Translations under genes and position numbers: made by a program
Part shown: positions 46,912 through 49,900 of the stretch, in pieces
Numbering within the stretch: position 1 is the first letter of the stretch
Layout of the letters: each line of letters starts with the position of its first letter
NCBI GenBank assembly: GCA_951406725.2
Contig: OX597826.1
Span: 58,218,001 to 58,282,000 of the forward strand
Direction of reading: 5' to 3'
Source of the DNA: Octopus vulgaris
Taxonomy: Eukaryota
Length of the DNA stretch: 64,000 nt
The notes under the pieces: generated by a model
The model's input: the letters and a program-made list of their open reading frames with translations, nothing else
What the model was told of the DNA's origin: nothing
The model's database searches: none

Positions 46912-49900
46912 TGTTTTATTATTACCCACAAGGGGCGAACACAGATGGGACAATACATTCTGATGATGGGGTCAGACAAACGAATGGGTTTTTACAATAA
47001 ATCGGGTTTAAAAATTTTCATGAATAACAATAAATGGACAAAAATCGAGTGATAGGACAGACCGGAAGACATTACGGGTGGAGTGGGTGCGGGTTTAGCT
47101 CGGACCCCACGAGCCCCGCCTCCCCACTGATACTTTTGGTTGCACTTGGTATTACATTTATGTTGTAACTTTCATTCGCAACTTCCGTGCTACATCCTTC
47201 CATCGTTCTTCATACGCCTTCCTAGTCAGGCATATTCTCTCCAGCCCTATCTTCCTTTTCAGGTGAAAGATGAAATAATTCATCAAACCAGGGCCGGAGA
47301 TGAACTTGCCTGACTGTAAACCTTTCATTCTCGTCTTCCATATCACCTCTTTCGCGATTGCTACTACAACGAGAAAACGAAACTTACCTTCATTCACGAG
47401 GAAATCCGGTGGGTCAATTTTTGTAATCGACTCAGTCGACAGCTGTACTTTCGTGTACCTGACAACAGGTGTTCGGCATAAACCCACACCTCAGACACGT
47501 CCGGACAATGAACAATCGCGTGCGGGACGGTTTCCCTATCCCGCCCGCATCTTGGACATATCGGACTGTCTTGGCCACCGTGCCTTGCGAGTTTATCCCG
47601 AACAGGTAGAGCTCCTCTGTAGCATTGCCATGCCAGAGACTTCTGGAAGTTGTCCAGTGTCCTTGGCTCGAACGTACGTCGGAACAGACTGGCCAGCTGA
47701 TTATCGTCGAGACCTAGGGTTTCCCCAAGGTATCTTCACATTCCGCCTCTACCAACCCTCTATAGAAGAAAGTGGTGGAACCCCCACCGCAGGCGTTGCC
47801 CGAGCGACGGAATAGCAGGAGAGCCTTGCGACACTCCGTGTACCAAGTACCAAGTTTCGATCTACGATTCAGCCAGGTTTCCCATCCACCGAAACTAGTG
47901 AACTTGGGAAACATCAGTTTTGCTAGCGAAGACCACACCCGTTCACCATCCAGGTAGAGCCACAGATGTCTTAACCTCAGCGCATGTCTGCGCATCATCA
48001 GCCAAGGCATCCCTAGCCCACCCTTTAACGGTTGTTGACAGCAAGTAGAGCGTTTCACAAGTGGTTTCCCGCCCTTCCACAAGAAGTAGAAGAGCTGTTC
48101 TTCCAACTTGATCAACCACGAATCAGGGCAAGGAACGACGGAAAGGCGGTAGGTGATAACCGATGCGATAAACACATTGGCCACCTCCGCCCTCCCTTTC
48201 AGGGATAGCCACCGCCAAGACCAGGTCTTGGCTACTGCAGCCACCTTGCTCGTTACCTCGCCCCAATTCTTCTCTATTTGGAGGTCTGGACCGAACCAGA
48301 CCCCTAGCAGTTTAATCGGACCCTCCGTCCAACGTCCCACGACGCTGTCAGGAGGCATCGACTTGCCTCTCCAGGTGCCGAGTTGCAAGCCGACTGACTT
48401 TTCGCGATTAACTTTTGCTCCTGTCACCGTCTCGTACACCTCTATGGCCTTGCCTACTTTACATAGGTGGTCCATTTCGGTTACGATGATGGTGATGTCA
48501 TCCGCGTACGCTGACACTGATTTTCCATTACCTGGTTGTCTCGGGATGCCGCTCAGTTTTCGCAGTAATGGCTCAAGAGCCATCACGTACAAAAGCGGGG
48601 AGAGCGGACACCCTTGACGAACCGAGCGTTTGATTTTGAACGGCTTCGACAAGAAGCCGTTCACCCGAACTACCGAGTCGATGTTATCATAAATTTCGAT
48701 AATCCACCTGAGGAATCCAAGGCTCAGCCCGAACTGTGCCAGGGCAGATACCAGGTAACGATGGTCGACCCTATCAAAAGCTTTAGATTGGTCTAAATGG
48801 ACCAGTGCCCCACCCTTGCCAGAATCACTATTAAACCCCTCTATAGTGTACCGCATTAGATGGAGATTATCCTGAATGGATCTGCCCGGAACGGCACATG
48901 TCTGTGCCCCTCCGATCAGACCATCCGCGACACGCGCCAATCTTTTCGATAACACTTTGGCCAAAATCTTCAACTCTGTGTTTAGCAGAGTGATGGGCCT
49001 GAAATTATCAATGCACTCCCCCTTGCTCGGGTCCTTTCTGACGAGAGTCACTACTCCCCGGCGCACAGATCTGGGTATAAGCCCGTTCTGCTGCCAGTTC
49101 GCGTAGACCTCCGCCAGTAGGTGCCCGAACAAGTCTGGCATACTCTTATATAACTCATAGGGTAGACCATCCAAACCCGGCGCCTTGCCCGCGCCGCAGT
49201 CCGCCATTGCCTCAACCACCTCCTCAGGCGTGATTGGCCCTTCACAGCCCTCCGCATCTCGCCCGATAAGCGCGGCAGACCGTCGAGTAGGTCCGTAAAG
49301 GCCCTCCTCCTATCCAGTCCGCCGCACTCACCGAAAAGCTGAGCGAAGTGCTCCTGAAAGGCCTCACACATCTCCTCGGGTTCGTTTATCAACTCACCTT
49401 GTTGGTTCGTCAAAGATCGAATCGTGGCATCGTTACCATGCTGAGCTTCCACCACTCGGGCCCATCTCACGGCGTTGATTCCTTCACATCCCATATGACG
49501 GATTCTAGTTTCCTGACAATGCAGCCCATGTGTTTGGCCTCGAGGTGCTGGTTTAACACCAGTCTCTTGGCCGCCACCTGAGCCGCAGAGCCAGTTTTCA
49601 TGGCTTCCTCTAATTCCTTAACTAGAGTAGTTTCCCTTCTAGCCTCTCTAGCCACTACTCCTATGCTATATCTAATAGACTCAAACTTGATGGCTCGTTT
49701 GAGGGCGTACCACCATTTGTTATTAATGATGGTACCAGATAGTGCCCTCTGAATTATATTCCTAATCCGGTCTTTGTACTCCTTAATCGCCAAAAGGGAC
49801 GTATTAAGTTTCCAGTAACCGGATCCTCTATTTTTAACCTTATCTATGTCAAGTTTACAAGTGACCATTTTATGATCACTGTAGCTGATCGGGTAAAACT

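What the first reader, a model, noticed from the sequence alone, without database searches (positions are those of the whole stretch)
46912..46986. 3' end of the Tx1-type LINE matches the tail of the young SINE-A family: candidate Tx1-driven SINE/LINE pair
Seen: on the plus strand the LINE terminus reads TTTTATTATTACCCACAAGGGGCG-AACACAGATGGGACAA..GGTCAGACAAACGAAT. The minus-oriented SINE-A at 19571 reads TTTCTTTACTACCCACAAGGGGCTAAACACAGAGAGGACAA..GGACAGACAAACGGAT. These are two colinear blocks (~42 and ~16 nt) separated by a ~12-nt indel, and both stop at the element end without poly(A). Known: shared 3' tails mark stringent SINE/LINE partnerships, commonly with CR1, L2 and RTE, while L1-type elements usually rely on poly(A), so a Tx1-derived tail is uncommon. 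Inference: this LINE family or a close relative mobilises the most abundant young SINE here. The 14-bp TSDs of SINE-A fit an APE-type LINE.
Basis: partly seen in the sequence, partly recalled or inferred. Interest (0 to 1): 0.85.

Follow-up and report, generated by a model that had tools for sequence, protein, structure and literature searches.

The report
Octopod SINE wears Tx1-type LINE tail
In what is likely an octopus genome, the youngest branch of a common short jumping element carries a tail about 80% identical to the very end of a Tx1-like long retrotransposon, which likely donated that tail and likely supplies the copying enzyme; this group was not listed as a tail donor in the papers searched.

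Summary
Observation confirmed. A 5'-truncated, decayed LINE on the minus strand (50171→46912, inside an 86-bp satellite) ends in 74 nt that match the whole tail of the youngest SINE subfamily: 77-84% identity plus a ~12-nt gap in 7 of 7 copies, above every background window tested. The match starts exactly where these SINEs part from older copies that share head and core but carry other tails, and stops at the element ends. Public contigs show other LINE copies running from ORF2 into the same end, so this is not a stray SINE fragment. The RT scores 186 bits against Xenopus Tx1L and 118 against human L1; in trees it sits beside, not inside, the named Tx1 group. Best reading: the SINE swapped in the 3' end of this Tx1-type lineage and is mobilised by it or a sibling family (inferred, untested). 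Tail-sharing pairs are textbook; a Tx1-type donor was not found in ten literature searches, but Repbase, Dfam and SINEBase could not be checked. No supported stem-loop. The scan had not noted this on other DNA.

The parts
46912..46985 (-). Terminal 74 nt of the LINE 3' UTR, homologous to the whole SINE tail A (distal block about 46912-46955, ~12-nt LINE-only stretch, proximal block 46970-46985)
46912..47157 (-). 3' UTR of the LINE (about 246 nt after the ORF2 stop at 47160-47158); contains no SINE head or core
   Evidence: spanned from 47196 to 46916 by one public contig
46912..50171 (-). 5'-truncated Tx1-type LINE copy: end of the APE endonuclease, RT, zf-RVT zinc finger; ORF2 broken by frameshifts near 49500, 49260, 47725 and 47450
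41021..46911 (.). 86-bp satellite (68.7 copies) flanking the LINE 3' end; the same satellite lies at 50172-50482 on the 5' side, followed by an N gap
19571..19802 (-). Full-length tail-A SINE with exact 14-bp TSD
37865..38095 (+). Full-length tail-A SINE with exact 14-bp TSD
17862..18319 (+). Two tail-A SINE units in tandem (period 190) followed by an internal SINE fragment
2430..2659 (+). Tail-A SINE
1745..1963 (+). Tail-A SINE with a 10-11 nt deletion in the proximal tail block
25459..25581 (-). 5'-truncated tail-A SINE
60492..60715 (+). Example of the older tail-B subfamily: same head and core, tail that does not match the LINE (others at 12802, 15146, 15493, 30540, 30758, 57180)

Best explanation
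The youngest subfamily of this tRNA-like SINE has a tail that matches the last 74 bases of a Tx1-like LINE from the point where it departs from older SINE subfamilies to the element end, and it likely gained that tail from this LINE lineage and is likely copied by the ORF2 protein of this family or a close sibling. Steps: (shown) head and core are shared by subfamilies with three different tails; only tail A matches the LINE; the LINE family, not just this copy, ends in this sequence; two tail-A copies have 14-bp TSDs. (Inferred) an older SINE replaced its tail by a template switch onto the LINE RNA; the SINE is transcribed by Pol III from its head; ORF2p recognises the shared 3' sequence instead of poly(A), nicks the target with its APE domain and reverse-transcribes the SINE RNA in place (TPRT), which gave the younger burst.
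For: Tail identity 77-84% in 7 of 7 tail-A copies, beyond shuffles and background. Homology begins at the tail-A/tail-B divergence point and no SINE core sequence is in the rest of the UTR (best local score 15), as expected for a module taken from the LINE. A 281-nt contig from run X14 (labelled as another organism than most holders) covers 47196-46916 with 15 differences and no gap, linking the ORF2 end to the tail; 22, 22, 3 and 16 contigs in the four runs laid carry another base at 46958, inside the LINE-only stretch, the best of them reaching 30 or more letters to either side. Three X14 contigs share the last ~42 nt but continue upstream in a different sequence, i.e. a second family with the same end (table 7). 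Tail-A cores are 10% apart against 21% for tail B; contigs match the LINE body with as few as 1 difference in 249 and 2 in 252 nt, so the LINE family is young too. TSDs of 14 bp fall on the 13-15 bp mode quoted for L1-clade LINEs and above the 10-12 bp mode of RTE (PMC6007223; n = 2). RT: 186 bits and 36% identity to Xenopus Tx1L, 118 bits to human L1, 92 to R2 with the same query.
Against: LINE-to-tail identity (about 81% plus a 12-nt gap) is lower than tail-to-tail identity (mean 91%), so this family may not be the direct donor or partner. No stable stem-loop: z-scores -0.71 to +1.27 for seven folds; the short hairpin common to LINE and tail A is broken in its three inner pairs in 3 of 7 tail-A copies. 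The tail is absent from the 3' regions of the nearest relatives whose DNA could be fetched (46-48% RT identity) and from all 150 loci at blastn significance, so it is not a conserved feature of the wider lineage. Only 2 of 5 tail-A insertions tested show a clean TSD. The LINE's own TSD and target could not be read in the satellite. The RT lies outside the 31-row group (support 86) that holds the named Tx1 proteins. No assay of mobilisation.
Confidence: 0.72

Rival explanations
1. Reverse direction: an ancestor of this LINE family captured the 3' end of a tail-A SINE and kept it as its UTR end; the SINE is driven by some other LINE.
For: Relatives at 46-48% RT identity lack the tail. The SINE is far more numerous in the window than the LINE (7 to 1).
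Against: The homology starts at the A/B divergence point and includes no core, whereas a capture would be expected to break anywhere in the SINE. Tail A is the youngest tail and has no other source in the window. A second LINE-like variant shares the same last ~42 nt.
Confidence: 0.12
2. The tail did come from the Tx1-type LINE, but it is a relic of one chimeric event; amplification does not depend on it (relaxed recognition, or another LINE's enzyme).
For: No significant RNA structure; the hairpin is broken in 3 of 7 copies; about 19% divergence between LINE end and tails. Crocodilian SINEU is thought to be moved by Tx1-Mar with poly(A) and no shared tail (PMC4494074).
Against: There is no poly(A) for relaxed recognition to act on; tail A goes with the younger burst; TSD length fits the L1 group.
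Confidence: 0.13
3. A SINE tail fragment simply lies next to this one LINE copy, or the match is chance in pyrimidine-rich sequence.
For: The LINE copy sits in a satellite where its TSD cannot be read.
Against: Scores exceed all shuffles and all 966 background windows; public contigs from four runs carry the LINE-only stretch joined to the shared blocks, and one links ORF2 to the tail; a SINE fragment would be about 91% like other tails and would lack the 12-nt stretch.
Confidence: 0.03

Closest known systems
Stringent SINE/LINE pairs with shared 3' tails (L2, CR1, RTE, Nimb and others; table of pairs in PMC3747384, bivalve pairs in PMC11481361)
   Same: tRNA-like head, conserved core, LINE-derived 3' tail of about 60 nt; tail swaps between subfamilies with one core, as described for SINE superfamilies (PMC4824008).
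   Different: The donor is Tx1-like. Table 1 of PMC3747384 lists no Tx1 donor and no cephalopod; the bivalve survey found CR1, CR1-Zenon, L2 and Nimb, and its text has no 'Tx1'. No stable stem-loop was found here.
L1-clade tail-sharing pairs: maize ZmSINE2/ZmSINE3 with LINE1-1_ZM, Chlamydomonas SINEX-3_CR with L1-1_CR (PMC3472496, PMC3747384)
   Same: An L1-group LINE sharing its terminal sequence with a tRNA-type SINE.
   Different: Those are plants and a green alga, with a supported hairpin in the monocot case and poly(A) in the algal one; this is an animal, Tx1-side lineage without poly(A) in the copies seen.
Crocodilian SINEU / Tx1-Mar (PMC4494074)
   Same: A SINE inferred to be mobilised by a Tx1-type LINE.
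   Different: There the link rests on shared target preference and shared 5' snRNA heads; SINEU has poly(A) and no LINE sharing the 3' end of SINEU-1 was found. Here the link is the 3' tail.
Xenopus laevis Tx1L ORF2 (YTX2_XENLA, P0365) and the 'L1-Tx1' families of octopus repeat libraries
   Same: APE-RT-zinc finger ORF2; 36% identity over the RT core. O. vulgaris has 80 L1-Tx1 families, 13 recently active (PMC13282606).
   Different: The window RT forms its own well-supported branch with an Argonauta and a Sepia protein, beside the named Tx1 group; sequence-specific targeting was not shown.
Octopus SINEs OK, OR1, OR2 (Ohshima and Okada 1994; names recalled, paper not seen; OR2 is cited as a CORE SINE in PMC4758252)
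   Same: Probably the same abundant tRNA-type family or one of its subfamilies (recall, not tested).

Membership tests
Stringent SINE/LINE pair | SINE 3' tail homologous to the LINE 3' end, both ending at the same place | tested here: met
Stringent SINE/LINE pair | The shared end belongs to the LINE family, not to one copy | tested here: met
   contig X14-1 spans 47196-46916; 16-22 contigs per deep run over the LINE-only stretch
Stringent SINE/LINE pair | Conserved stem-loop with compensatory changes in the tail (common, not universal) | tested here: inconclusive
   z-scores not significant; a 4-pair hairpin with a 5-nt loop in the LINE, its three inner pairs kept in 4 of 7 tail-A copies
Stringent SINE/LINE pair | Overlapping activity periods | tested here: inconclusive
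   tail-A cores 10% apart pairwise; LINE contigs 0.4-5% from this copy; no genome-wide landscape
Stringent SINE/LINE pair | Tail required for trans-mobilisation by the LINE ORF2p | not testable with these tools
   needs a retrotransposition assay
L1/Tx1 group of non-LTR retrotransposons | APE endonuclease, RT and C-terminal zinc finger in ORF2 | tested here: met
   PF03372, PF00078, PF13966
L1/Tx1 group of non-LTR retrotransposons | RT closer to L1/Tx1 than to other clades | tested here: met
   Tx1L 186 bits, human L1 118, R2 92; no named CR1, L2 or RTE protein among the 240 hits listed, and none was available for direct scoring
Tx1 clade in the strict sense | RT nests inside the clade of Tx1L and its named relatives | tested here: inconclusive
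   63-row quick tree: window branch (13 rows, 99) lies beside the 31-row group with the named Tx1 proteins (86) in an unresolved fork (97); 125-row FastTree joins them at 0.91; no named L1 anchor in either
Tx1 clade in the strict sense | Target-sequence preference (many members) | tested here: inconclusive
   one copy, in a satellite; relatives at 36-38% lie beside U1 and U2 genes
tRNA-derived SINE (SINE2) | [quoted passage not shown] | tested here: inconclusive
   box-like matches with up to 3 mismatches to recalled consensus patterns; Rfam and ARAGORN do not call the head a tRNA
MetaSINE or CORE-SINE superfamily | Central domain matches the Meta or CORE consensus | not testable with these tools
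   consensus is in figures and a supplement file that could not be read; the likeness to the Meta domain is recall only

The most novel reading that the evidence does not exclude
First tail-sharing (stringent) SINE/LINE pair with a Tx1-type donor and the first in the animal L1/Tx1 group: an octopod Tx1-side lineage recognises a specific non-poly(A) 3' sequence, and a tail swap onto it launched the youngest burst of a dominant octopus SINE. This would extend stringent recognition to the animal side of the L1 group and give an assay system for the open question of whether L1's poly(A)-based recognition is derived.
Probability: 0.5. Interest if true: 0.68.

Novelty: new variant of a known kind. 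Interest (0 to 1): 0.56.

Why it matters
SINEs make up 11.6% of the O. vulgaris genome and most recently active SINE families are unclassified (PMC13282606); no driver for them turned up in the searches. Naming a Tx1-type partner explains the youngest subfamily's spread by a tail swap. It also bears on Ohshima's proposal that L1-group elements were ancestrally stringent and relaxed later (PMC3472496), which so far rests on plant and algal pairs. The pair is short, young and directly testable in a standard trans-mobilisation assay.

Tried and rejected
No whole genome was held, so genome-wide consensus and age profiles could not be built. Search for the tail in relatives: blastn of UTR and tail against 150 fetched loci gave nothing significant at a 3' end; a motif scan gave one exact 12-nt hit 177 nt after the ORF of L002 and a few one-mismatch hits, about what chance allows by my rough estimate, so a deeply conserved Tx1 tail motif was rejected. 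A tail pattern scan of viral contigs found 0 matches. Folding of LINE and SINE ends gave no significant structure. Tails B and C do not match the LINE UTR (scores 14-20, at shuffle level). ESM Atlas gave only generic RT clusters. Three loci tested as possible L1 anchors scored 227-290 bits against human L1 over about 900 residues and were not used as L1 anchors. The careful tree did not finish; the quick tree is reported. A literature search by a short core motif returned unrelated papers.

Full report
What is there. The window is AT-rich, microsatellite-laden animal DNA. The nearest named relatives of the LINE's RT are from Argonauta hians (61% identity) and Acanthosepion (Sepia) pharaonis (50%), so the host is likely an octopod; no genome was held. 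The LINE lies on the minus strand from 50171 to 46912, is 5'-truncated inside the APE domain and carries RT and zf-RVT. tblastn with intact relatives shows ORF2 split over several frames, ending at a stop at 47160-47158, followed by a UTR of about 246 nt. It sits in an 86-bp satellite present on both sides; an N gap follows the 5' flank and no TSD can be read.

The match. The last 74 nt of the LINE align to the tails of 7 of 7 tail-A SINE copies at 77-84% over 51-62 columns, with a gap of about 12 nt; tails are 91% alike among themselves. Local scores were 38-51 against maxima of 25-34 in 300 shuffles per copy, and 50 against a maximum of 30 in 966 background windows of 250 nt, SINE-A copies and the LINE end masked. 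Neither element has poly(A) here.

The SINE family. A profile of head and core found 20 hits: 7 with tail A, 7 with a different tail B, 2 with a third tail C, 4 fragments. Core divergence was 10% among tail-A copies (15 pairs, 6 of 7 copies; the truncated one left out) and 21% among tail-B copies (10 pairs, 5 of 7 copies). The LINE homology begins at the base where tail A and tail B part; the UTR upstream has no SINE core (best score 15) and tails B and C do not match the UTR (scores 14-20; 3 tail-B and 1 tail-C tested). Exact 14-bp TSDs flank 2 of 5 tail-A insertions tested; one more has a displaced 16-bp repeat in a tandem region; none of 5 tail-B copies has a clean TSD. PMC6007223 quotes 13-15 bp as the mode for L1-clade and 10-12 bp for RTE TSDs.

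Is the end a property of the LINE family? Twenty runs in 8 studies hold half or more of the words of the LINE's 3' part; 4 of them were laid as contigs at 80% likeness. One X14 contig of 281 nt covers 47196-46916 with 15 differences and no gap, from the ORF2 end through the UTR into the tail. At 46958, inside the LINE-only stretch, 22, 22, 3 and 16 contigs carry another base, with summed depth far above that of the long divergent contigs of the same runs; depth is not a copy number. Three X14 contigs share the last ~42 nt and continue upstream differently, which points to a second family or variant with the same end. One of the holders may be the source of the window, and contigs cannot show whether other copies have a short poly(A).

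Is it Tx1? With the same 345-residue query and database size, phmmer gave 186 bits for Xenopus Tx1L (P0365, found), 118 for human L1 ORF2p and 92 for R2; with 516 residues, 234 against 143. In a 125-row FastTree the window's branch joins the group with a Tx1-named coral protein and fish and turtle elements at 0.91. In a 63-row quick IQ-TREE (rows thinned by hand from those available; careful search unfinished) it forms a 13-row branch (99) with the Argonauta and Sepia proteins, beside a 31-row group (86) that holds the Tx1 references, in an unresolved fork of 97. Three of the four reference labels come from database names; the Tx1 label of P0421 is recalled. No named L1, CR1 or RTE sequence was in the trees. 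So 'Tx1-type' is supported and strict membership is open.

Results against. The tail is not found in the closest fetched relatives (46-48% RT identity, tandem arrays in a MAG, likely host DNA) or at significance in any of 150 loci. Folding gave z from -0.71 to +1.27. A 4-pair hairpin with a CUUGU loop near the end is seen in the LINE; its three inner pairs hold in 4 of 7 tail-A copies and a shared change breaks it in two. A similar loop with a different stem occurs in some tail-B copies, clean in 3 of 7; this is a lead only. The 19% distance between LINE end and tails suggests that a sibling family is the direct partner.

How it most likely works. Shown: shared head and core, swapped tails, tail A equal to the LINE family's end, younger age of tail A, 14-bp TSDs. 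Inferred from established SINE/LINE biology (PMC3747384, PMC4824008): a template switch put the LINE's 3' end on an older SINE; Pol III transcripts ending in this tail are bound by the LINE's ORF2p, which nicks the target and reverse-transcribes them in place. I give this 0.72; capture in the other direction 0.12; a relic tail not needed for mobilisation 0.13; adjacency or chance 0.03.

What is known. Ten searches found no report of a SINE with a Tx1-derived tail or of a LINE partner for octopus SINEs. Seen: PMC3747384 passages and Table 1: no Tx1 donor, no cephalopod, L1-clade pairs only in maize and Chlamydomonas; PMC3472496 passages; PMC4494074 passages: SINEU linked to Tx1-Mar by targets and 5' heads, poly(A), no shared 3' end found for SINEU-1; PMC11481361 passages: CR1, CR1-Zenon, L2, Nimb; PMC4824008 parts 2-3 of 6 and two supplement files, one file and the figures unread; PMC13282606 part 1 of 3 and its supplement by term search; passages of PMC4758252, PMC5786205, PMC8967140, PMC7245038, PMC5753468, PMC6007223, PMC11203168. 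Ohshima and Okada 1994 on octopus OK/OR1/OR2 is recalled, not seen. Repbase, Dfam, SINEBase and subscription journals were not searchable, and the unread supplement may hold the consensus that would place this SINE in a superfamily; an earlier database note of this pair cannot be excluded.

Verdict. Interest 0.56.

Noticed in passing
window 12802-12930, 15146-15302, 15493-15630, 30540-30702, 30758-30922, 57180-57340, 60492-60660; 599-697, 9038-9201: Older subfamilies of the same SINE with tails B and C; the copy at 57180 sits inside an (ATT)n microsatellite on both sides, hinting at a different LINE partner that targets or ends in such repeats (an R4/Dong-like one is a guess from recall).
   Followed up: partly
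window tails A, B, C and LINE end (46920-46940): A short hairpin with a CUUGU-like loop about 15-20 nt before the end recurs with different stems in tails A and B; not statistically supported.
   Followed up: partly
window 17862-18319: Tail-A SINE followed directly by internal SINE sequence twice (period 190): SINE-in-SINE insertion or template jumping, at places that resemble the tail's last bases.
   Followed up: no
window 19557-19570 and 38096-38109: The two clean 14-bp TSDs resemble each other (both contain TGTTCT near their 3' end), a possible target preference; n = 2.
   Followed up: no
L081-L141, L143, L145-L148 (contigs CAXXMW0100000xx): A GTDB 'Arenicella' MAG contains many contigs of head-to-tail ~6.5-kb units each with a Tx1-type ORF2 (46-48% to the window RT): likely eukaryotic host DNA in the MAG, and tandem arrays of a LINE.
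   Followed up: partly
L142:769-7870 and L008:5815-5977: Related Tx1-type elements lie between two U1 snRNA genes (L142, in a Metamycoplasmataceae MAG) and upstream of a U2 gene (L008).
   Followed up: no
window 41021-46912, 50172-50482, 50583-52575: An 86-bp satellite abuts, across an N gap, a 22-bp GC-richer tandem array and a 10-bp palindromic tandem repeat.
   Followed up: no
window 9360-9442 +: tRNA-Leu(TAA)-like gene or pseudogene called by Rfam (47.7 bits) and ARAGORN.
   Followed up: no
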